Sequence record: MT533174.1
Strand: one strand, 5' to 3'
From: Escherichia phage CJ20
DNA length: 64,000 bases
The notes below the pieces were generated by a model. The model was not told the DNA's origin, did no database searches, and worked only from the letters and a program-made list of their open reading frames with translations. Both the position numbers and the translations under genes were made by a program. Position 1 is the first letter of the stretch, and each line of letters opens with the position of its first letter. Positions 1 through 57,182 of this stretch are shown here, one piece after another.

Positions 1-236
1 TTTAAAGACATTGCAGTTGGTGAAAAATTTGTCCTGGGTAATGGTCAACAACTGATTCGCATTTCGCCTTTAATGGATTCAAATGAACATCCTGTGCGCA
101 CTGAAAACTGTTTGGATTATCCTTTTTATCAGAAGCGTTTTGCAATTGAAAATAATACTGAGTGCTTCACAGTTGATGAACTGATGGAATCATCAGAAGA
201 AGTTGACTTGTGGGATGGTGTGGTAGACCCTGAATA
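1..236 (+). CDS. hypothetical protein, 3' fragment entering from upstream of window
   Basis: Open frame from window edge to TAA at 234-236; next gene follows after GAGGAAAA RBS. Confidence 0.35.
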
Positions 237-3270: not shown

Positions 3271-3879
3271 ATGAACAAGTTAAATTATATCGTTAAATGC
3301 TCCCAGAACGCTCTACACGAGACTGATGTCAATGCTCTGGTGTTTGTATACAAAAACAACTTTGTTCGTCCAGAGGTTGTTTTAGACCAGCAGAACACAT
3401 CAATTGATAGCGTACAGACATTGTTGAATAACAACTATGTTGAAGCTTCTGGTGATGGTTTGATGGTTACAGAAAAAGGTGTTGACCTTATTCTGGATGC
3501 GGCTGAACTTTGGGCAAATGAAAATAATCCTGACCTTCTGGAAGTAAAGAAGACAAGAACAAAACGCGGTGTGACTGATGAAATGGAAGCGACTGCAGAA
3601 TATATCAAAGAGCAATTGTTGTCCATTGGTATTGACTTTAAGAGCATTTCAGAAGACCGCAGTAATTTGATTGTGAAGTTCAAGCGTGTCAAGACATTAA
3701 AACAGATTGATGTGCGACGTGATGGTCAGATTCGCGTGCATGCGTATAATACTGAACAAAAGATAGTAAAACAGTTTACAGACGTGGGATTTAGCGTTAA
3801 AGTAGGTGGATTGAATACCTACATTGACAATCATATGTCAACTGAAAACATTCAACATGTTATTAACATCTTAAAGTGA
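3271..3879 (+). CDS. motA: middle transcription activator MotA-like (202 aa)
   Basis: Shares SGDGL(I/M)xT and KQFTDVGxS motifs with recalled T4 MotA; position next to gene 52. Confidence 0.6.
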   Translation: MNKLNYIVKCSQNALHETDVNALVFVYKNNFVRPEVVLDQQNTSIDSVQTLLNNNYVEASGDGLMVTEKGVDLILDAAELWANENNPDLLEVKKTRTKRGVTDEMEATAEYIKEQLLSIGIDFKSISEDRSNLIVKFKRVKTLKQIDVRRDGQIRVHAYNTEQKIVKQFTDVGFSVKVGGLNTYIDNHMSTENIQHVINILK

Positions 3880-5306: not shown

Positions 5307-5582
5307 ATGACTAAATTTGAAATCGTTTCTGAAATTGTTACTGTAACTTCAATTTTGATTAAAACCGACCGGGAAGATATTACGATGAAGCGTGATGTGT
5401 TTATCGCGTTTTTGAATGAGTTGGGATTGAGGAATGAGAATGGTAATGAGTTAAACAATGTATCGTTTAACAAGTTGTTTAAAAGTTTATCTGAAGATGA
5501 AATTGAACAAATCATTGAACAATTTAACGAAGGATTCGAAGATATACACCGTTATCTTATGATGTATACCTCCGGATTCTAA
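5307..5582 (+). CDS. asiA: anti-sigma70 factor AsiA (91 aa)
   Basis: Strong similarity to recalled T4 AsiA (VTVTSILIK, FIAFLNE, NEGFE, YRYLxMYT). Confidence 0.8.
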   Translation: MTKFEIVSEIVTVTSILIKTDREDITMKRDVFIAFLNELGLRNENGNELNNVSFNKLFKSLSEDEIEQIIEQFNEGFEDIHRYLMMYTSGF

Positions 5583-11745: not shown

Positions 11746-12877
11746 GTTTTTCTCTGAATTCCGCGGCAAATACGAATCCAGCTTGACTGGACCTTGTTGC
11801 ATTTTTATCATTCAATTGTGCAATGACATTACCCATATTACCTGGTTCTCCAGCCACAACCATTCTTATGCCGTTAATACCGATTTCTGCGGATTTAGCC
11901 TGTGTTTCTTGTCGAGCGATTTCTGTAAAGAAAATATTCCTTACTCCACCTTGTCCAGCAGCAACGGTCTTCCTTGCATACAATGTAAATCCATCAGCAT
12001 TCGGTGGAACAACAACATAACGTTCAAACGTCATCCATGCACCAGCCGGTGGACTTGCTTGACCTGTAGATGGGATATCATAATCGTTTGACTGAATCAT
12101 CGTCTGACCATTAAAGAATCGAACAGACATCTGAGTTGTTCCAAGGTCTTTAAGCGCCTGGTCATATGTCAGCTGAAACTTCAGGTAAAAAGTATCACCA
12201 GGGGCCATATTATAATCGGCCGCAGGAGTGATGGGAGAGTCTGTGGGGAAGCGTTTTATTTCTTGTGTACTATTACTATAATATGTGTTTCCGTCTTCCA
12301 CGACGCGCAGAGGGAATCCTGTGCCACCCACATCAGCAAAGTCGTCGTACACCATTTCCAATGGAGTCAATACATCTTCAACAGTTTTCCCGTCATTATA
12401 CAACACATGCTCTTTAACGATTGCATTTCGACCAGAGATATAAAAAGCCGAATACGAAGTATCAACTTGGTCAATCAACCACTTATCCGGAAATGCAGTC
12501 GAGCCGCGTGTTCTGAACCAATCAATTAAAGTTTGGGAAGCATTCAATTTCCCCTGCGATATCAAACAAACAATCCTACCCGCTGGAATGGAATTAATAT
12601 AAGTCACAAAGGCCTGTGAAATGACATCATAGTCTTTTGTGAAACCATAGTTTTTGGTTGCAGTGATTGTATTTGTTACTGGGTCAATCTCAATAAGGTT
12701 TAATCCATTTTGGAAGTTCTGAGGCCCGAAGGCCTCATCTTGAAACTTAACGTAGGGATAGTTTGGCGATTTGGTACAAGTCCCAGCAATCGACAATTTA
12801 TATCTTACTGCGTTATTTTCAGAAAGCACGGGAACTTGGACATATCCCTGTCCAAATTCAGCCATAAATCTTTCCAT
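11741..12877 (-). CDS. 35: long tail fibre hinge protein gp35 (378 aa)
   Basis: Size and position between genes 34 and 36 as in T4. Confidence 0.7.
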   Translation of the reverse strand: MERFMAEFGQGYVQVPVLSENNAVRYKLSIAGTCTKSPNYPYVKFQDEAFGPQNFQNGLNLIEIDPVTNTITATKNYGFTKDYDVISQAFVTYINSIPAGRIVCLISQGKLNASQTLIDWFRTRGSTAFPDKWLIDQVDTSYSAFYISGRNAIVKEHVLYNDGKTVEDVLTPLEMVYDDFADVGGTGFPLRVVEDGNTYYSNSTQEIKRFPTDSPITPAADYNMAPGDTFYLKFQLTYDQALKDLGTTQMSVRFFNGQTMIQSNDYDIPSTGQASPPAGAWMTFERYVVVPPNADGFTLYARKTVAAGQGGVRNIFFTEIARQETQAKSAEIGINGIRMVVAGEPGNMGNVIAQLNDKNATRSSQAGFVFAAEFREKQ

Positions 12878-12885
12878 AATACCTC

Positions 12886-15800
12886 TTATGGTGTATCAAT
12901 CCATTCGAATTTAACGGATTTAGTTACTGGGTCCGGAACAATACGTACGTTACCGATTCTTAACCAATCCCTGATAGTCAGGTTACTCATCGAAGCGTTA
13001 TCAGCAGGCAATGCACCAATATCCGACGGCTGAGGTGGGTTACCGCCATCAAAGACCTGAACAAAACCAGACCATGCGTTTTTGTTCTGCTGCCATGTAC
13101 GAGTCCAACGAGTGGTGCTTGCATTAGCAGTATTCGGATAAGTAATCCAGTCTTGATAGAGTGAATTCAGCGTGTTGCCAAACTGAGTCAATGTACCAGG
13201 TGATTTAACTTCTTCACCACGCTCCAAATAAGGCAGACCAGTTACTTCGTTAGTCTTTTCAACCATTTTGAAATAACCAGGGAATTGCTTATAAGTGGCT
13301 TCGTCATTAACGTCAACGGACCAGAAACCGGTATTATCTGCATTAGGTTTTCTAGAATAAAGGTCCGCAGGTTTAGTACCCTGAGAACGAATTCTCGAGT
13401 TAACAGTTAAACCACCCAAATTTATAGTAGCACCTTTGGCAATGATTAAGCTTTCACCAATCGTTACTTGGCCAGATGTATTACTAATAGCTAATGGTCT
13501 TAATCCGTTAAAGCCACCAGTCTGGTCATTTGCATTTGTAAGCATGAAATAGATGTTCGAGTTATCATTACGAATAAAGAACCCGTACTGTCCATTAATA
13601 GCTCTAAATGCGTTTGCACTATAGGTTATAAATTCACCTTGTGCAGTCACCGAACGTCCAAATGTTGCCGCACCATTAGCATTCAATGTTCCGGATGCAT
13701 TAACGTTAATCGGTTGAACTGTGCCGTTGATACTAAAAGTAATATTACCAAGATTATTCCGTTGCGAATAAAAGTGATTAGATGTTTCATCACCAACTTC
13801 AAACACGGTAGAACGAGTCGTATCCGAACCGCCACCATACTGGTTACCCCACACACGGATGCTCATTGACTGAACCGGGTTTGCACCGGATGCAGGACCT
13901 TTTTCGAAAACGATACGGGTCGGAGTTCCTGTGTTACGTATAGTAAATGTGGAGTTAGCAGCCAACGAGCCACCAAATTCACCGGTACCACCAGTCGCCA
14001 GCTGACCATCAACTCTTATGTTCTTTCTAAGGGTTAATGTACCTTCAACGATTTGGTCAATATCACGACGAATGAACTGCGTGCTATCCAGGTTATCCAG
14101 TTTATCCGAGTCTGCGGCTTTAGCTAAACGCGGCAGGAAGTTACCAAGGGTTTTGTTTAACTCATACGGAGAGATAGCATAGCTATTTTTCTCGTACAGG
14201 TCAAGAGCCTGGGTCGAACCTGCAGTTGCATTACCGACAAAAGTAATTGCACCTTCAGACATCTTAGCAAAGCCGCGGGTCGTCGTGGTTGCTGCCCATG
14301 TTGGTTCGGACTGCGCAATCCATTTCAGACTAACCGGAGAAACAGCCAGAACTGAACTTGTTCCTGCGATAGTTTCTGCGCGAGTAGCGATGCGAACAAT
14401 ACCTTCGGTGCCTTCTGTGGCTTTTTTCGACATCAACTTAAGCGGAGTAACGATTGTTTTATCGTCAGTACCAGTATTAACTTCAAGTTGAGTAGCCAGT
14501 CTTGCAGTGCCACGTTGAGTCTCATTTGCTTCAAGAATATTCAGCGTATAATGGTCCCAGAGCGTCCCTGTTTCTACTAAACCACTTGCTGCAATAACAG
14601 AAGTACGAGCAGTATTATTAAGTCTAGTTTTAATTTTTAATGGCGTTGCGATACGAGTATCATCAGTGCCAGTATCAAATTCTGATTGCGTAGCAATCTC
14701 GGCTATGCCGGATAATGATTCTGTTGCTTTACGGTCATTCAACGTTTTAGGAGTCACAGCTCTGGTATAATCGGTTCCGGCATTAGTTTCAGCCTGAGTT
14801 GCAATCTCGATTAAACCATGGTTTGAATCTGTTGCTCTGCGTGCACCTAATGTTTCCGGAGTCACGACCGAGTTACTGAATCCTGTATTTGTTGCCCCGG
14901 CGTTAACTTCTGACTGAGTAGCCAGATATACAGCACCTTGGTTATTCTGGTCAGCTTTATATTGGTCCAAAGCTTTCGGAGAAATTACCAGAGTGGTTGT
15001 ATTTTTATTATAAACGTTTGTCCCAACAGTTATACGGCTTGCTGCTGGAGTAGTCCCAGTAGTAGGAACATACTTAACGATACCAGATAAGCTTTCGGAG
15101 CCCTGACGAGCTTGTAGCTTGCGTGGAGTGATGATTGTAGTATCATCTATACCTGCATCAGTTTCTTGCTGTGTGGCGATTTCTGCGAGCCCACGTCTTG
15201 TTTCTGTAGCTGTACGTTCGTTTAACTTTTTCGGAGAAACGATAATATCATCCTGGAAAGCAAAAGTCGTATCCTGGTTCACCTGAGCAGTGTTAGCAAT
15301 TCGTGCAATACCACGACGTGATTCAGTAGCCACACGGTTAGCCAAAGTCTGCGGAGTAATTGCTAATTCTTTTTCAGGGTTATTTTCATGGTCAACGTTG
15401 GCCTGTGCCTGGTTAGCCAATGCAATAACACCCAGACGAGCACGGGTCAAATCATCCTTCGAGTCAACTCGTTCTACAGTCGGAACGTTTTGCGCAACAA
15501 CCCAATAGTTAATGTTCTTAACCGTATCTTCAAGATAACTTAATTCGATAACTGGCGTATAACTTATGTTACCATTGAAAGTCAAAGAGTCAACCAATAC
15601 CCATTCAGTATCCGGTGGATATTCCGAACGTTTCGGGAACTGGAGCAGCTGAACAGAAGACGCGATTTTATCAGTAGCCGAAGCTTTAATATTAACAGTC
15701 TGTGCCTTGCGAAGATAGTTCAGAGCAATCTTAACTACGTCCCCTGGACGAACACCCGTCGGAAGGTCGATGTTAATTGTCTGCGAGGTGTTGTTATCAT

Positions 15801-16785
15801 TACCGAACACGATAATACTTTCGTTTGACAGCAATTTCACACTGTCACGGATTACGCGCAGGCGAGTTTTGTTATCACCATCCCAAGTCACCCACAGTTT
15901 TTCAGTGGCATTATAAACGAAGAAGCCATCACCAGTTGTACGGAATTCCATACTGTGCTGACCCTGTTTACCCAGAGAGCTTGACTCGTCAAACGTTTCA
16001 ACATCCAGGTGATATAATGGCCCTAATCCATCTATGTCTACCGATTTGACAATATCACCTTGGTTAGCATACTTAGGAAGAACAAATGTAATTTTTTCTG
16101 CAGTCGTATAATGACGCATAATAAAATCTGATGCTTGAGTTCGATATTTACCAGAGCTTGGTTCAATTCTTATTCCGCGTTCTTCGTTACCGGCTTCCCA
16201 AAACTGCCATAAGCGGTTTGAAAAGATAAGCATGTTATAAGAGAACGGTTTTGTAATTAAAACTTCTGAATACTGATTACCAAAACGAACAATCTTTTGG
16301 TTACCTTGACCAGGTACGTTGCTCGATTGAACTTTGATTTCATTATAACCGGTATTACCACCGATATCTTTAATAACGATGGTATCACCATCAGTCGGGT
16401 TCGGGGGTAATGTAAATGTGGTAAAGCTTGCAGCTGAGTCGACCGCGATAAATTCCCCGGAATTAAGCTGACGAGTCGGAGATGCAACAGTTTCCCATTT
16501 CGGGTCAGTACGGGTTGCAGTCCAATATTGCTGAACAAATGAGCCAGCTGGTTCTGCGATTTCGCGTTGGGAAACCCAAATACGGTTATCATAGATAACT
16601 GCGAAGTTCTTTTTGTATCCACGCGTTGCATCATATTGTTGAACTGTGTTTTCTTCTATAAAGAAATCTACGTTAACGCCGTCTGACAAAACTGAGTAAT
16701 CAGCTTTAGCGACATTAATGACTTTCTCACCAGCAGCATCGAGACCGGATGTTGCTCTGAATGCTGGTTTTAAAATATCGGCCAT
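12886..16785 (-). CDS. 34: long tail fibre proximal subunit gp34 (1299 aa)
   Basis: Size close to T4 gp34 (1289 aa); first gene of 34-38 cluster; internal repeats. Confidence 0.8.
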   Translation of the reverse strand: MADILKPAFRATSGLDAAGEKVINVAKADYSVLSDGVNVDFFIEENTVQQYDATRGYKKNFAVIYDNRIWVSQREIAEPAGSFVQQYWTATRTDPKWETVASPTRQLNSGEFIAVDSAASFTTFTLPPNPTDGDTIVIKDIGGNTGYNEIKVQSSNVPGQGNQKIVRFGNQYSEVLITKPFSYNMLIFSNRLWQFWEAGNEERGIRIEPSSGKYRTQASDFIMRHYTTAEKITFVLPKYANQGDIVKSVDIDGLGPLYHLDVETFDESSSLGKQGQHSMEFRTTGDGFFVYNATEKLWVTWDGDNKTRLRVIRDSVKLLSNESIIVFGNDNNTSQTINIDLPTGVRPGDVVKIALNYLRKAQTVNIKASATDKIASSVQLLQFPKRSEYPPDTEWVLVDSLTFNGNISYTPVIELSYLEDTVKNINYWVVAQNVPTVERVDSKDDLTRARLGVIALANQAQANVDHENNPEKELAITPQTLANRVATESRRGIARIANTAQVNQDTTFAFQDDIIVSPKKLNERTATETRRGLAEIATQQETDAGIDDTTIITPRKLQARQGSESLSGIVKYVPTTGTTPAASRITVGTNVYNKNTTTLVISPKALDQYKADQNNQGAVYLATQSEVNAGATNTGFSNSVVTPETLGARRATDSNHGLIEIATQAETNAGTDYTRAVTPKTLNDRKATESLSGIAEIATQSEFDTGTDDTRIATPLKIKTRLNNTARTSVIAASGLVETGTLWDHYTLNILEANETQRGTARLATQLEVNTGTDDKTIVTPLKLMSKKATEGTEGIVRIATRAETIAGTSSVLAVSPVSLKWIAQSEPTWAATTTTRGFAKMSEGAITFVGNATAGSTQALDLYEKNSYAISPYELNKTLGNFLPRLAKAADSDKLDNLDSTQFIRRDIDQIVEGTLTLRKNIRVDGQLATGGTGEFGGSLAANSTFTIRNTGTPTRIVFEKGPASGANPVQSMSIRVWGNQYGGGSDTTRSTVFEVGDETSNHFYSQRNNLGNITFSINGTVQPINVNASGTLNANGAATFGRSVTAQGEFITYSANAFRAINGQYGFFIRNDNSNIYFMLTNANDQTGGFNGLRPLAISNTSGQVTIGESLIIAKGATINLGGLTVNSRIRSQGTKPADLYSRKPNADNTGFWSVDVNDEATYKQFPGYFKMVEKTNEVTGLPYLERGEEVKSPGTLTQFGNTLNSLYQDWITYPNTANASTTRWTRTWQQNKNAWSGFVQVFDGGNPPQPSDIGALPADNASMSNLTIRDWLRIGNVRIVPDPVTKSVKFEWIDTP
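14390..15380 (-). repeat. internal tandem protein repeats in gp34
   Basis: At least six repeats of a motif like RGIAxIATQxExNxGTDDTxxxTPxxL in the translation. Confidence 0.6.
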
Positions 16786-19042: not shown

Positions 19043-19102
19043 AGTATAATTAATACGTAATCAAAACAACTGCTAAAAATCAAATAATCTAAGGAAAATC
19101 AT

Positions 19103-32478: not shown

Positions 32479-32686
32479 CAAACACCATGAAGTTGAAGAA
32501 GAAGCTTATAAAGAGCTTCAGAAACTGGTAGGGCAGAATATGTCTCCTGCTCTTATCAACAACCTGGCTGCACTGCGCAATGATATCAACGAACGATACA
32601 AGGGCGAATATTATGTTGAATTCGTTCCGCTGACTGAAGTCATTGACCGATTTATCGTTAATGTCAAGGTGCATACCGTCCATTAA
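32471..32686 (+). CDS. hypothetical protein (71 aa)
   Basis: Overlapping start with previous ORF. Confidence 0.45.
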   Translation: MYNKHHEVEEEAYKELQKLVGQNMSPALINNLAALRNDINERYKGEYYVEFVPLTEVIDRFIVNVKVHTVH

Positions 32687-32711
32687 CGCTTTAAAAATTT
32701 TATGTTATAAT
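32685..32711 (+). promoter_or_regulatory. middle promoter (MotA-box-like AACGCTTTA, 12 bp spacer, -10 TATAAT) followed by GGGGTCTAGGTCC palindrome
   Basis: Same architecture as promoters at 51303 and 56051. Confidence 0.45.
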
Positions 32712-32757
32712 GGGGTCTAGGTCCTTTGGATACCCCAATAACTAAGCGAGAAAAGAA

Positions 32758-33036
32758 ATGTTTCCTACATATTCTGAAATTGTTAAAGTAGTTTTTAGTC
32801 AGATTGTATCTGATTATCTATACGAAAGCGTCGACGTGTCGACTGAACTAAAGGTGCATGGTCGTTTGTCTGCTATTCTGGAAATCATGTTCCCGGATGC
32901 AGTTGATGCAATCACTGTTCAACTCACGCCTGGCGCAGCATTTGCAATTGTTCCATTTAAAATTGATAACCACATTTTGGCTATTTCATGCAAAATGGAC
33001 TTCCAGAAACAAACGGTAGTTGTCGAAGCAATTTAA
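32758..33036 (+). CDS. hypothetical protein (92 aa)
   Basis: RBS + ATG downstream of middle-type promoter. Confidence 0.5.
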   Translation: MFPTYSEIVKVVFSQIVSDYLYESVDVSTELKVHGRLSAILEIMFPDAVDAITVQLTPGAAFAIVPFKIDNHILAISCKMDFQKQTVVVEAI

Positions 33037-35333: not shown

Positions 35334-35364
35334 TGCTTCAAACGGTGCGTGTTATTATTAATAC

Positions 35365-35712
35365 ATGACCAAACAACATGGATTAAATATGGAATTACCA
35401 ATTAAAGCAGTAGGTGAATATATTATTTTGGTTTCTGAGCCAAAGCAAGCTGGTGATGAAGAAACTACGGCATCAGGTATCGTTATCGGAAAACTCCATC
35501 AGGGTGAAATCCCAGAGATGTGTGAAGTATTTTCGGTTGGTCCAGATGTTCCTGAAGGTTTCTGTGAAGTAGGTGATTTGACTCCTCTTCCGGTTGGCAA
35601 GATTGCAAACGTTCCACATCCTCTGGTTGCTCTGGGACTTAAGCAGGCTAAAGAAGTTAAGCAGAAATTTGTGACCTGCCATTATAAAGCTGTTCCTTGT
35701 CTTTATAAGTAA
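35365..35712 (+). CDS. 31: co-chaperonin gp31 (GroES analogue), about 111-115 aa
   Basis: Close match to recalled T4 gp31 (AVGEYxILVSEP, [25 protein letters not shown](V/I)PCLYK); alternative start at 35389. Confidence 0.8.
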
Positions 35713-37080: not shown

Positions 37081-37151
37081 AACAGTTTACTTTGGTACAG
37101 GTTATGATATTATAGACCTGTACCAACAAATGAAAACAACTGGAGAATAAA

Positions 37152-50914: not shown

Positions 50915-51304
50915 ATGAATATAAACAAAATGTATAGCGATGTATCTCCTGACTTGTCAATGAGTTGGGATAAAGACGTTGCTAAAGTAACTGGCGCAAG
51001 GTCCGTTAAGAACAGCCTTCTGGGAATAATCACCACAAGAAAAGGGTCAAGGCCTTTTATGCCTGAATTTGGATGTGATATAAGTAATCAGCTTTTTGAG
51101 AATATCACTCCATTAATCACAGATACCATTAAACGCAACATCGTCTCCGCGGTGCGGAACTTCGAACCGAGGATAAGCAATCTACAGGTTGCAGTTGTCC
51201 CTATGTATGATGATAACTCCATTATCGTAACGGTTCAGTTCAGCATTGTTGATGACCCTGATACCCTCGAACAAATCAGGATTCAGCTAAGTCAAAACGG
51301 TTAA
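50915..51304 (+). CDS. 25: baseplate wedge protein gp25 (129 aa)
   Basis: Strong similarity to recalled T4 gp25 (KNSLLGIITTRKGSRPF, PEFGCD, QLFEN). Confidence 0.85.
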   Translation: MNINKMYSDVSPDLSMSWDKDVAKVTGARSVKNSLLGIITTRKGSRPFMPEFGCDISNQLFENITPLITDTIKRNIVSAVRNFEPRISNLQVAVVPMYDDNSIIVTVQFSIVDDPDTLEQIRIQLSQNG

Positions 51305-51329
51305 TGCTTTAATTTTATGGCTGTATAAT
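51303..51329 (+). promoter_or_regulatory. middle promoter (MotA box AATGCTTTA, 12 bp spacer, -10 TATAAT) followed by GGTTCTAGACCC palindrome
   Basis: Sequence architecture upstream of uvsY. Confidence 0.55.
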
Positions 51330-51357
51330 GGTTCTAGACCCTTACATTGGATACATT

Positions 51358-51792
51358 ATGAAAACAGAGATTGAATATAAGTTGGAAGTATTTCAGGACG
51401 AGTTAGATGCAGATTTAAAAATTGATGGTACACAACTTCAATATGAAACACAAAACAACGTTTTGTTGCATAGCAAATGGTTGAGATTGTATACTAACTG
51501 CAAGAAAGAAATAATGCGTCTTGAGATTCAGAAGAAAACTGCACTGAAAAAACGACTAGACCATTATACAGGAAGGGGTGACCCAGGGGAAGAAGTATGC
51601 ATGGATGTATACGAGAAGTCAGAATTGAAAACAGTCATGGCCGCGGATTCAAGCGTGCTGAAGATTGATACTTCAATTCAATATTGGGCACTACTCCAGG
51701 ACTTCTGTAGCGCTGCATTAGATGGTGTTAAGTCACGAAGTTTCGCACTTAAACATATGTTAGAAATAAGACAATTCGAGGCAGGTAAATGA
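51358..51792 (+). CDS. uvsY: recombination mediator UvsY (144 aa)
   Basis: Strong similarity to recalled T4 UvsY (TQLQYE, LYSKWL, YSGRGD, DTSIQYW, LDGVKSRSFALKH). Confidence 0.8.
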   Translation: MKTEIEYKLEVFQDELDADLKIDGTQLQYETQNNVLLHSKWLRLYTNCKKEIMRLEIQKKTALKKRLDHYTGRGDPGEEVCMDVYEKSELKTVMAADSSVLKIDTSIQYWALLQDFCSAALDGVKSRSFALKHMLEIRQFEAGK

Positions 51793-56050: not shown

Positions 56051-56078
56051 TTTGCTTCAAATAAAAATGCGGTATAAT
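56051..56078 (+). promoter_or_regulatory. middle promoter (MotA box TTTGCTTCA, 13 bp spacer, -10 TATAAT) followed by GGTTCTAGACCC palindrome
   Basis: Same architecture and identical downstream palindrome as the uvsY promoter. Confidence 0.5.
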
Positions 56079-56174
56079 GGTTCTAGACCCTTTGTGACTA
56101 TTAATTCCTTTCAGAGAAAGAAAGTATAGTGGGTCTAATTTATAATGATATTTATAACATCAAAGTGAGAGATT

Positions 56175-57182
56175 ATGTTTAAAAAATACAACAGCCTTGA
56201 AAATCACTATAACAACAAGTTCATTGAAAAGATTCGTCTACAAGGCTTCACCAGCGGTGAATGGGTAGCTCGTGAAAAGATTCATGGTACCAATTTTTCA
56301 TTAATTATTGAACAAGACAATGTGACATGCGCGAAACGCACTGGACCTATCCTACCCGCAGAAGATTTCTATGGTTATGAAATTGTATTAAAGAACTACG
56401 CAGATTCTATTAAATCTGTGCAGAAACTTTTGCAGGATATTAATTACCAGGCTTACCAGATTTATGGCGAGTTTGCCGGGGCAGGTATCCAGAAGAATGT
56501 GGATTACGGTGATAAAGATTTCTATGTGTTTGATATCCGCGTTACTAAGGAAGATGGCTCTGAATCCGTCCTGACTGACACACTTATGGAAGCCTTCTGC
56601 ATTATTCATAAGTTTAAAGTTGCTCCGCGCCTGGCTACCGGAAGCTTTGAAGACCTTATTAAACTCCCTAATGACCTGGATTCTGTGGTCCCTGATTACA
56701 ATTTTACAGTGGATAACGCAGGATTGACTACAGCAAATACCACTGATTTTGATGCAAAGGTGGAAGGTAAAGTATTCACTGCTGAAGGATTTGTATTAAA
56801 ACCTGATGTTCCTGCCTGGTTACCTAACGGCGAGCGTGTAGCGATTAAATGTAAGAACTCTAAATTCAGTGAAAAGAAAAAGTCTGATAAACCTATTAAG
56901 GCTGCTGTTGTGTTGTCCCAGGAAGACCTGGATATTTTATGGAAGTTCACTGATTATGTGACTGTTAACCGTATTAATAATGTTATCAGTAAGATTGGTG
57001 AAGTATCTCCGAAAGACTTTGGAAAGGTAATGGGTTTGACTGTCCAGGATATCCTGGAAGAAGCTGGTCGTGAAGGCCTTGAATTGACCCAGTCAGAAAA
57101 TCCTGTTGAAGTTAAAAAGCAACTTATCACAAATGTAAGAGAAACATTAAGACATGTTTGGATTGCATTAATTAGTGAATAA
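56175..57182 (+). CDS. rnlB: RNA ligase 2 (335 aa)
   Basis: Motif I KIHGTN; near-identical N-terminus to recalled T4 Rnl2. Confidence 0.85.

What the first reader, a model, noticed from the sequence alone, without database searches (positions are those of the whole stretch)
51303..51342. Middle promoters share a palindrome immediately after the -10
Three MotA-box promoters are each followed directly by a GC palindrome: GGTTCTAGACCC at 51331-51342 (uvsY) and again at 56079-56090 (rnlB), and GGGGTCTAGGTCC at 32712-32724. Transcripts would begin inside or just before this element, giving every such mRNA a 5'-terminal hairpin. That points to a shared post-transcriptional or initiation control for a subset of middle genes.
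Basis: seen in the sequence. Interest (0 to 1): 0.45.

Follow-up and report, generated by a model that had tools for sequence, protein, structure and literature searches.

The report
Shared start-site module in phage middle promoters
Three phage "middle" promoters do share a near-palindromic sequence right after the -10 box, but RNA synthesis most likely starts in its centre, so it looks like a conserved start-site module of one promoter subfamily, not a hairpin at the 5' end of the mRNA.

Summary
The window is a T4-like phage closest to Gaprivervirus (about 95% to UPEC01 and VR20). It encodes MotA and AsiA.

**Observation.** The shared element is real and non-random. GGNNCTAGNNCC occurs three times in 64 kb, always 0-1 nt after the TATAAT of a MotA-box promoter (uvsY, rnlB, a cd.3 homologue). 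CTAG is otherwise about 7-fold depleted.

**Hairpin reading fails.**
- In T4, three promoters of the same subfamily (PuvsY, PnrdC.7, P34i) have mapped starts at the A seven nt after the -10. By orthology the window transcripts start at the A of CTAG, so the left arm is not transcribed.
- The palindrome folds at -1.7 or 0 kcal/mol.
- Predicted leaders fold no better than shuffles.
- Across 24 family members the dyad pairing equals the shuffled control.

**What it is.** It is a downstream extension, about -6 to +8, of a conserved subfamily of MotA-dependent promoters.
- The consensus is TATAAT-GGKTCT-A-R-RYCCYT.
- The subfamily includes the T4 origin promoter PuvsY, marginally P34i, and conserved antisense promoters.
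- GG at -6/-5, T at -1, A at +1 and G at +2 match known sigma-70 polymerase start-site determinants.
- The +2 to +10 part is lineage-specific (T4 TCTAAGTCC, this lineage TCTAGACC), which suggests gene conversion or a co-evolving factor.

The finding is moderately interesting.

The parts
51303..51311 (+). MotA box (aaTGCTTtA) of the uvsY middle promoter. It overlaps the TAA stop (51302-51304) of the gene 25 homologue.
   Evidence: orthologous to T4 PuvsY
51324..51329 (+). -10 hexamer TATAAT of PuvsY, 12 bp after the MotA box.
51330..51341 (+). Shared downstream element GGTTCTAGACCC. Positions 51330-51335 form the discriminator (-6 to -1), the predicted +1 is A51336, and 51337-51341 are the first transcribed bases.
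   Evidence: the start is inferred from the mapped T4 PuvsY start, 7th nt after the -10
51358..51792 (+). uvsY coding sequence, taken from the likely true start codon.
   Evidence: Pfam UvsY 1.6e-50. The ATG at 51328, annotated as the start in VR20, lies inside the -10 and upstream of the predicted +1.
56051..56059 (+). MotA box (ttTGCTTcA) of the promoter upstream of rnlB.
56073..56078 (+). -10 hexamer TATAAT, 13 bp after the MotA box.
56079..56090 (+). Shared downstream element GGTTCTAGACCC; predicted +1 is A56085.
56175..57182 (+). rnlB (RNA ligase 2) coding sequence, 90 nt downstream of the predicted start.
   Evidence: Pfam RNA_ligase and T4_Rnl2_C
32685..32693 (+). MotA-like box (aaCGCTTtA) of the promoter upstream of the cd.3 homologue.
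32706..32711 (+). -10 hexamer TATAAT, preceded by TGt (an extended -10).
32712..32724 (+). Shared element with one extra G, GGGGTCTAGGTCC. The predicted +1 is A32719, the 8th nt after the -10. Relatives with GGG have it at the 7th.
32758..33036 (+). cd.3 homologue (DUF7355), the first gene of the cd-31 cluster served by this promoter.
   Evidence: VR20 annotation
14525..14562 (+). Peripheral family member, TTTGCTTCA-N13-TATAAT-GGTCCCAGAG. It is the orthologue of T4 P34i, the promoter of replication origin oriG, and lies antisense inside the gene 34 homologue (12886-16785, minus strand).
   Evidence: the T4 P34i start is mapped at the A after CCC
3271..3879 (+). motA, the activator that reads the -30 box of these promoters.
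   Evidence: Pfam MotA_activ and MotCF
5307..5582 (+). asiA, the anti-sigma co-activator.
   Evidence: Pfam AsiA 7.9e-21

Best explanation
The element is DNA-level promoter sequence. It is the discriminator (-6 to -1), the start site and the first 6-8 transcribed bases of a conserved subfamily of MotA/AsiA-dependent middle promoters. The consensus is TATAAT-GGKTCT-A(+1)-R-RYCCYT.

Its left half and centre supply every known sequence determinant that makes E. coli sigma-70 polymerase open stably and start at one defined base:
- GG directly after the -10, read by sigma region 1.2;
- a start 7 nt after the -10;
- pyrimidine at -1 and purine at +1;
- G at +2, the core recognition element.

These promoters lack a consensus -35. 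Such contacts would fix the start at the A of CTAG and strengthen the open complex.

The following RYCCYT is an initially transcribed sequence. It is kept alike among the members of one genome, either by selection on promoter escape or by short-tract gene conversion.

The dyad symmetry (GG..CTAG..CC) is a by-product of these constraints and does not act as a hairpin.

Shown here: the sequences, their position, family membership, conservation, the lack of structure, and the T4 start sites taken from the literature. Inferred: the polymerase contacts and any effect on strength or escape.
For: 1. The position relative to the -10 is fixed (0-1 nt) in every member: 3 of 3 in the window, 8 in VR20 and 6 in T4.
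2. Mapped T4 starts of three members are the 7th nt, an A.
3. The most conserved columns are untranscribed or at the start. In 24 members G-6 and C-2 are invariant and A+1 exceeds 90%. The uvsY promoter keeps TATAATGG.YCYA across at least six lineages, while CTAG and the right arm change to CTAT, CCAT or CTAA.
4. The motif matches the four start-site determinants listed in PMC5730371: 7 bp, Y-1/R+1, G+2 and a GGG discriminator.
5. There is no RNA structure and no covariation of the dyad, and no Rfam match.
6. The spacer between the MotA box and the -10 is unrelated among members, so conservation is confined to about -15 to +10.
Against: 1. The polymerase determinants explain G-6, G-5, T-1, A+1 and G+2. 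They do not explain the near-invariant C-2 and T-3 or the RYCCYT at +3 to +8.
2. The strongest phage promoters, the T4 early class, use a quite different A/T-rich discriminator and leader, ACAACT-ATCAACTACTGAGG. Most mapped T4 middle promoters also have A/T-rich discriminators. The motif is therefore not a universal optimum.
3. The +1 to +10 part evolves in concert within genomes: 3.44 mismatches between paralogues against 5.43 between orthologues. T4-type genomes carry TCTAAG(T/C)CC at four loci, where VR20 has TCTAGACC (TCT-GACC at nrdC.6) at three of them. All these phages use the same host polymerase, so this hints at a phage-specific reader or at gene conversion.
4. No start site has been mapped in this phage itself.
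Confidence: 0.55

Rival explanations
1. Promoter-family homogenisation without a function of its own. The members are copies or gene-conversion partners of one another, like the repeated early-promoter cassettes (PeSL/PmSL) of T4-type phages. The shared bases after the -10 are simply carried along. Any role would be as short homology for recombination.
For: - Within-genome paralogues are more alike than between-genome orthologues at +1 to +10.
- Lineage-specific versions sit at the same loci.
- Membership is gained and lost between lineages: rnlB, cd.3 and the gene-18 antisense promoter belong only in the VR20/JS98 lines, PnrdD only in T4.
- T4 early promoters also share a long downstream consensus.
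- Repeated promoter cassettes that mediate shuffling are described in PMC4122927.
Against: - Identity tracts are bounded to about -15 to +10, while the adjacent 11-13 bp spacers and MotA-box flanks are unrelated. Plain conversion or duplication would not stop so precisely in many pairs.
- The core GGKYCYA of the uvsY promoter is kept across at least six lineages while the rest of that intergenic region diverges, which indicates purifying selection.
- The upstream terminator stem-loop that defines PeSL/PmSL is absent.
Confidence: 0.22
2. The element is the recognition site of a phage-encoded factor. The factor would bind the DNA over the start site, or the conserved 5' end of the RNA (AGACCC.. 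or AAGUCC..). It would define a regulon within the middle class that includes the R-loop replication-origin promoters and several non-coding antisense promoters.
For: - The lineage-specific consensus changes in concert although the host polymerase is the same.
- In T4, CTAAGTCC occurs four times in the genome, three of them at these promoters.
- Members include PuvsY (oriF) and, loosely, P34i (oriG).
- Members also include conserved antisense promoters with no gene to serve, in the srd/modA and gene 3/gene 2 spacers of T4, VR20 and a 167-kb phage.
- What distinguishes origin promoters is an open question (PMC3016281).
Against: - No candidate protein is known.
- Dyad symmetry is not conserved, and the arm spacing differs by 1 bp between T4 (13-mer) and this lineage (12-mer).
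- T4 PuvsY lacks the left arm altogether.
- P34i matches only at G-6, G-5, C-2, A+1 and G+2.
- Downstream A+T content of members is no different from other middle promoters.
- T4 oriA's promoter (gene 56) is not a member.
- No complementarity was found to T4 rnaC or rnaD.
Confidence: 0.15
3. One reading: the palindrome is transcribed and forms a 5'-terminal hairpin that controls mRNA stability or translation.
For: The element is self-complementary at 8-10 of 12 positions and lies at the 5' edge of the transcription units. The rnlB leader can pair its predicted 5' end AGACCC with GGGUCU 45 nt downstream.
Against: - Mapped starts of T4 family members fall at the centre of the element, and sigma-70 polymerase prefers to start about 7 bp after the -10 (PMC5730371).
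- Hairpin energy is -1.7 or 0 kcal/mol.
- Leaders are no more structured than shuffles.
- There is no covariation.
- The rnlB long-range stem is not kept in VR25.
Confidence: 0.03

Closest known systems
T4 MotA/AsiA-dependent middle promoters PuvsY, PnrdC.7 and P34i (sigma appropriation)
   Same: - MotA box at -30, an 11-13 bp spacer and a TATAAT -10, with no consensus -35.
- The same genes or positions: uvsY, the inside of gene 34, and the nrdC region in VR20.
- The same downstream pattern, TATAAT-G(G/A)NTCT-A.
- The phage encodes motA and asiA.
   Different: - The published consensus stops at the -10 (the reviews read were PMC2988021 and PMC1524935). No downstream part was mentioned in what could be read.
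- This lineage has TCTAGACC or TCTAGGTCC where T4 has TCTAAGTCC.
- rnlB and cd.3 carry a family promoter here but not in T4.
Sigma-70 core-promoter elements downstream of the -10: the discriminator (sigma region 1.2), the core recognition element (+2 G) and the 'start' element
   Same: GG at -6/-5, a start at the 7th nt, T-1/A+1 and G+2 are the preferences described for E. coli polymerase (PMC5730371; the YRY start element in PMC12641261).
   Different: These elements are short and degenerate in host promoters. Here about 14 bp are nearly identical between promoters, and the conservation includes positions (-3, -2, +3 to +8) with no described polymerase preference.
PeSL/PmSL repeated promoter cassettes of T4-type phages (PMC2839356, PMC4122927)
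   Same: Repeated, lineage-specific promoter-centred sequences in intergenic regions of T4-type genomes. A middle-promoter version (PmSL) with a TGCTT Mot box has been described in vibriophage nt-1.
   Different: PeSL/PmSL are defined by a terminator-like stem-loop upstream of the promoter and by their association with hyperplastic regions. Here there is no upstream stem-loop, the shared part lies downstream of the -10, and several members sit in conserved core regions.
T4 R-loop replication origins oriF (uvsY) and oriG (34)
   Same: The window's 51303-51341 and 14525-14562 are the positional orthologues of the promoters that prime these origins.
   Different: Origin function needs a downstream unwinding element and has not been tested here. 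The rnlB and cd.3 promoters have no known origin counterpart. Downstream A+T content is not distinctive.
5'-terminal stabilising hairpins of bacterial and phage mRNAs (ompA type)
   Same: Only the location at the 5' edge of a transcript.
   Different: No stable or conserved stem is present, and the left arm is not transcribed.

Membership tests
MotA/AsiA-dependent middle promoter (T4 type) | MotA box (a/t)(a/t)TGCTT(t/c)A centred near -30 | tested here: met
   51303-51311, 56051-56059 and 14525-14533 match. 32685-32693 has C for T at one position (CGCTT), a deviation known to be tolerated.
MotA/AsiA-dependent middle promoter (T4 type) | Sigma-70 -10 element TAnnnT, 11-13 bp downstream of the box, with no consensus -35 | tested here: met
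   TATAAT lies at 12 or 13 bp in all cases. No -35-type match at sites 1 and 2; only 4 of 6 at site 3.
MotA/AsiA-dependent middle promoter (T4 type) | The phage encodes MotA and AsiA | tested here: met
   Pfam MotA_activ and MotCF at 3271-3879; AsiA at 5307-5582.
MotA/AsiA-dependent middle promoter (T4 type) | MotA-dependent transcript with a 5' end about 7 nt after the -10 in infected cells | not testable with these tools
   Only inferred from the mapped T4 orthologues PuvsY 115371, PnrdC.7 53325 and P34i 153011.
5'-terminal mRNA hairpin | Both arms lie within the transcript | tested here: not met
   The predicted +1 is the central A. T4 family starts are mapped at that A.
5'-terminal mRNA hairpin | Thermodynamically stable stem, better than shuffled controls | tested here: not met
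   -1.7 kcal/mol (z -0.58) and 0 kcal/mol. Leaders give z -0.3 to +0.8.
5'-terminal mRNA hairpin | Pairing kept by compensatory changes among relatives | tested here: not met
   70.8% paired against 70.5% in shuffles; 266 of 500 shuffles were as high. The rnlB long-range stem is broken in VR25.
PeSL/PmSL regulatory cassette | Terminator-like stem-loop immediately upstream of the promoter | tested here: not met
   No terminator-like site upstream of any of the three promoters.
PeSL/PmSL regulatory cassette | Repeated, lineage-specific promoter sequence present at many intergenic sites | tested here: met
   8 members in VR20 and 6 in T4, each genome with its own consensus.
T4-type R-loop origin (oriF/oriG) | MotA-dependent promoter at the orthologous position | tested here: met
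   uvsY upstream region and the inside of gene 34, antisense. This does not apply to the rnlB and cd.3 sites.
T4-type R-loop origin (oriF/oriG) | [quoted passage not shown] | tested here: inconclusive
   A+T over +1..50 is 72% for uvsY and 56% for 34i in VR20, against a genome value of 59.6%. In T4, family members are no richer than other middle promoters (67.7 +/- 5.7%).
T4-type R-loop origin (oriF/oriG) | Persistent R-loop and autonomous plasmid replication after infection | not testable with these tools
   Requires experiment.
Palindromic operator of a dimeric DNA-binding protein | Dyad symmetry and arm spacing conserved among sites and relatives | tested here: not met
   Symmetry is no better than column composition predicts. 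T4 uses a 13-bp odd spacing and this lineage a 12-bp spacing. T4 PuvsY lacks the left arm.

The most novel reading that the evidence does not exclude
The -6 to +8 module is read by a phage-encoded factor that co-evolves with it, which would explain the lineage-specific versions TCTAAGTCC, TCTAGACC and TCTAGGTCC. It would mark a distinct regulon of MotA promoters whose products are RNAs rather than messages: the primers of the R-loop origins (uvsY, 34i) and the conserved antisense transcripts in the srd/modA, gene 3/gene 2 and gene 18/19 spacers. It would then be the missing sequence rule for which middle promoters become replication origins.
Probability: 0.1. Interest if true: 0.75.

Novelty: new variant of a known kind. 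Interest (0 to 1): 0.4.

Why it matters
Middle promoters of T4-type phages are a textbook case of sigma appropriation, and their consensus is described as ending at the -10.

A conserved, lineage-specific extension over the start site, limited to a subfamily, would have three consequences:
- It would refine promoter prediction and start-codon annotation in hundreds of T4-like genomes. For example, the VR20 uvsY start is placed inside the -10.
- It would give a handle on two conserved antisense promoters that are absent from the published T4 table.
- It would offer a concrete, mutable sequence for asking what sets the origin promoters PuvsY and P34i apart. The T4 replication review lists that as an open question.

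If it is only an optimal discriminator and start sequence, the matter is ordinary promoter fine-tuning.

Tried and rejected
- **RNA hairpin from the palindrome, or a structured leader.** Folding and shuffles, the orthologue check and pair counting were all negative.
- **Known RNA family.** Nothing in Rfam.
- **Coding N-terminal extension of UvsY from the ATG inside TATAATG.** It is in frame here and in the JS98-like contigs. It runs into stops in T4, in the L011-type phage and in L066, and it lies upstream of the predicted +1.
- **Upstream terminator or PeSL structure.** Absent.
- **General optimum of strong phage promoters.** T4 early promoters and most mapped middle promoters use other discriminators.
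- **Origin signature through an A+T-rich downstream region.** Not distinctive. T4 origins oriA, oriC and oriE are only within 3-6 kb of members, and oriE has the wrong strand.
- **Pairing of the conserved 5' end with T4 rnaC or rnaD.** None beyond chance.
- **T4 dRNA-seq start table** (bioRxiv 10.1101/2024.04.04.588121). The one supplementary file held as text contained none of the six T4 start coordinates searched for.
- **Miller 2003 T4 genome review.** Not held.
- **IMG/VR scan for GCTTNA-N11-13-TATAATGGNTC.** Only the T4-like hits were used.
- **The search for related loci with UvsY alone.** It reached only close relatives.

Full report
**Identity of the window.** An 8-kb stretch around the finding matches Gaprivervirus phages (UPEC01, VR20, SP18) at about 95%. 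The annotated VR20 record gives the local gene order 26-25-uvsY ... inh-hoc-24.3-24.2-rnlB. The window encodes MotA (3271-3879) and AsiA (5307-5582). The genes behind the three sites are UvsY, RNA ligase 2 and a DUF7355 protein that VR20 annotates as similar to T4 Cd.3.

**The observation.** The three sequences are present.
- Site 1 is TATAAT 51324-51329 followed by GGTTCTAGACCC at 51330-51341.
- Site 2 is TATAAT 56073-56078 followed by the same 12-mer at 56079-56090.
- Site 3 is TATAAT 32706-32711 followed by GGGGTCTAGGTCC at 32712-32724.

All three have a MotA-type box 12-13 bp upstream. The simple sigma-70 scan finds no -35-type promoter at sites 1 and 2, and a weak one (4 of 6 in the first hexamer) at site 3.

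The coincidence is not chance.
- TATAATGGNTCTAG occurs twice against 0.07 expected.
- GGNNCTAGNNCC occurs three times against 0.32 expected, and nowhere else in the window.
- All three copies abut one of only 65 TATAAT hexamers, roughly 1e-9 by position.
- CTAG is about 7-fold depleted: 31 against 233 expected.

The palindromes are imperfect, with 10/12, 10/12 and 8/12 self-complementary positions. About ten other MotA-box candidates in the window lack the element.

**Where transcription starts.** No start is mapped in this phage, but T4 has the same promoters. Hinton's review tabulates mapped T4 middle-promoter starts (PMC2988021). Placed on the T4 sequence, PuvsY (115371), PnrdC.7 (53325) and P34i (153011) each start at the 7th nt after the -10. 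That is the A that follows TCT or CCC in TATAAT-GAATCT-A, -GGTTCT-A and -GGTCCC-A. Most other promoters in that table also start at the 7th nt. This agrees with the general preference of sigma-70 polymerase (PMC5730371).

By orthology the window's starts are A51336, A56085 and A32719. At A32719 the start is the 8th nt because of one extra G; relatives with GGG have it at the 7th. The start therefore falls at the centre of the palindrome, and the left arm is untranscribed discriminator DNA.

**No RNA structure.**
- Even if transcribed whole, GGUUCUAGACCC folds at -1.7 kcal/mol (z -0.58) and the site-3 version at 0.
- Leaders taken from the predicted +1 fold no better than shuffles (z +0.66, -0.30, +0.77).
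- The rnlB leader can pair AGACCC with GGGUCU at 56131-56136. In VR25 that partner is GGGUAU and the 5' end is AGACCU, so the pairing is not maintained.
- In an alignment of 24 family members, the four possible arm pairs form standard pairs in 70.8% of cells against 70.5% after shuffling. 266 of 500 shuffles were as high, so the symmetry follows from column composition alone.
- Rfam finds nothing.

**What the element belongs to.** A whole-genome view of VR20 shows that GGNNCTAGNNCC occurs only at these three promoters. Looser relatives of the same pattern follow other MotA-box promoters:
- +75162, TATAATGGTTCTAGACC, in the gene 3/gene 2 spacer and pointing antisense into gene 2;
- -47144, GGTTCT-GACCTTTG, upstream of nrdC.6;
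- +11024, GGTTCTAAGGTC, in the srd/modA spacer, antisense;
- -99380, GGTTCTACGG, in the gene 18/19 spacer, antisense;
- the gene-34 internal promoter, GGTCCCAGAG, which is window 14525-14562.

T4 carries the same subfamily at the same places:
- PuvsY, GAATCTAAGTCCATCC;
- the srd/modA spacer, +11885-11897, GAATCTAAGTCCTTCC;
- the gene 3/gene 2 spacer, +75988-76000, GGGTCTAAGTCCCTTCC;
- PnrdC.7, GGTTCTAAGCCC;
- PnrdD, GAATCTGACACC;
- P34i.

Several T4-like contigs in IMG/VR carry the same sequences at up to four of these loci each. JS98-like contigs have TCTAGGTCC or TCTAGGTTC upstream of the rnlB region, of cd.3 and of the nrdC gene. A 167-kb phage has TATAATGGGTCTAGGTCC in its srd/modA spacer.

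The uvsY promoter keeps TATAATGG.YCYA in at least six lineages. CTAG itself and the right arm are not kept; they become CTAT, CCAT or CTAA. In the 24-member alignment G-6 and C-2 are invariant and A+1 exceeds 90%. The spacers between the MotA box and the -10 are unrelated among members.

**Mechanism judged most likely.** The conserved half is DNA that polymerase reads, not RNA. GG directly after the -10, a start at the 7th nt, T at -1 with A at +1, and G at +2 are exactly the four determinants of start-site selection listed in PMC5730371.

For promoters without a consensus -35, these contacts should fix the start and stabilise the open complex. That step is inferred, not shown. The following RYCCYT is an initially transcribed sequence, and its role, perhaps in escape, is not shown either.

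Three things weigh against a purely polymerase-optimum view.
- C-2, T-3 and +3 to +8 have no described preference.
- T4 early promoters and most mapped T4 middle promoters use A/T-rich discriminators.
- The +1 to +10 part evolves in concert. There are 3.44 mismatches between paralogues of one genome against 5.43 between orthologues of different genomes. The genome consensus sequences are TCTAAGTCCTTCC (T4), TCTAGACCCTTTG (VR20) and TCTAGGTCCTTT (JS98-like).

Short-tract gene conversion among promoter copies or a co-evolving phage factor could each explain the concerted change. The sharp bounds of the identity tracts and the long-term conservation of the core argue for selection. The absence of conserved symmetry argues against a dimeric operator.

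**Relation to what is known.** The promoters are members of the MotA/AsiA class, and every sequence-level defining feature was met. PuvsY and P34i are the promoters of the T4 R-loop origins oriF and oriG. The window's 51303-51341 and 14525-14562 are their positional orthologues. However, downstream A+T content does not set family members apart, and P34i is only a marginal member.

The repeated-cassette idea (PeSL/PmSL, PMC4122927) resembles the within-genome similarity, but its defining upstream stem-loop is absent.

The reviews that could be read describe the middle-promoter consensus as MotA box, optional TGn and -10 only. The primary papers (Truncaite 2003, Stoskiene 2007, Miller 2003) could not be read. 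The claim that the downstream consensus is undescribed therefore rests on limited reading. The two antisense T4 promoters are not in Hinton's table.

**Verdict.** The shared element is real. The hairpin and post-transcriptional reading is not supported. The element is best seen as a start-site module of a conserved, partly non-coding subfamily of middle promoters. It is a modest extension of a well-known system, with an open question about what maintains its lineage-specific part.

Noticed in passing
window 51328-51360: The ATG inside TATAATG (51328) is the uvsY start annotated in VR20. It lies in the -10, upstream of the predicted +1. The Pfam UvsY domain begins at residue 15 of the ORF that starts at 51358, so the annotated start is probably 10 codons too early.
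   Followed up: partly
window 14525-14562 (+), inside the gene 34 homologue 12886-16785 (-): Orthologue of the T4 P34i promoter that primes replication origin oriG (TTTGCTTCA-N13-TATAATGGTCCCAGAG), antisense to the tail-fibre gene as in T4.
   Followed up: partly
window 56125-56137: A second -10-like hexamer plus half motif (TATAGTGGGTCTA) lies 52 nt downstream of the rnlB promoter. It is complementary to the predicted 5' end AGACCC. In VR25 it reads TATAGAGGGTATA, so the pairing is not conserved.
   Followed up: partly
window 37085-37125 (+); T4 129890, 20583, 57961, 73543, 73910, 146114: Early promoters (GTTTAC-N17-TAnnnT) carry an inverted repeat whose arms flank the -10, for example TTGGTACAGGT ... 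ACCTGTACCAA. The arm sequences differ between promoters, which looks like covariation. Only the right arm would be in the promoter's own transcript.
   Followed up: no
T4 +11885-11897 and +75988-76000; VR20 +11024, +75162, -99380; L004 3962: MotA-type promoters of the same subfamily sit in the srd/modA, gene 3/gene 2 and gene 18/19 spacers and point antisense to the flanking genes. They are conserved between T4, VR20 and a 167-kb phage, and they are absent from the table of identified T4 middle promoters in PMC2988021.
   Followed up: partly
L004 3962-4010 (also L003, L041): The srd/modA-spacer promoter of a 167-kb phage is followed by four CTAG in 30 nt (GGTCTAGGTCCCTAGTTCTAGATAATCACTAG). CTAG is strongly depleted in the related genomes examined (VR20 and T4).
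   Followed up: no
whole window; VR20; T4: CTAG is about 7-fold under-represented in the window (31 against 233) and about 6-fold in VR20 (106 against 616), but only about 2-fold in T4 (256 against 548).
   Followed up: no
window 19045-19062 and 35353-35370: A second recurrent downstream pattern among MotA-box promoters is TAT(A/T)AT-TAATAC(G/A)T, here upstream of the gene 32 and gene 31 homologues. It resembles T4 P31 and PtRNAE (TATTAT-TAA(T/C)TC-A).
   Followed up: no
T4 early promoters (one search list): Many T4 early promoters share a long downstream consensus, TACTAT-ACAACT-ATCAACTACTGAGG. Class-specific conservation beyond the -10 is therefore not unique to the middle subfamily.
   Followed up: no
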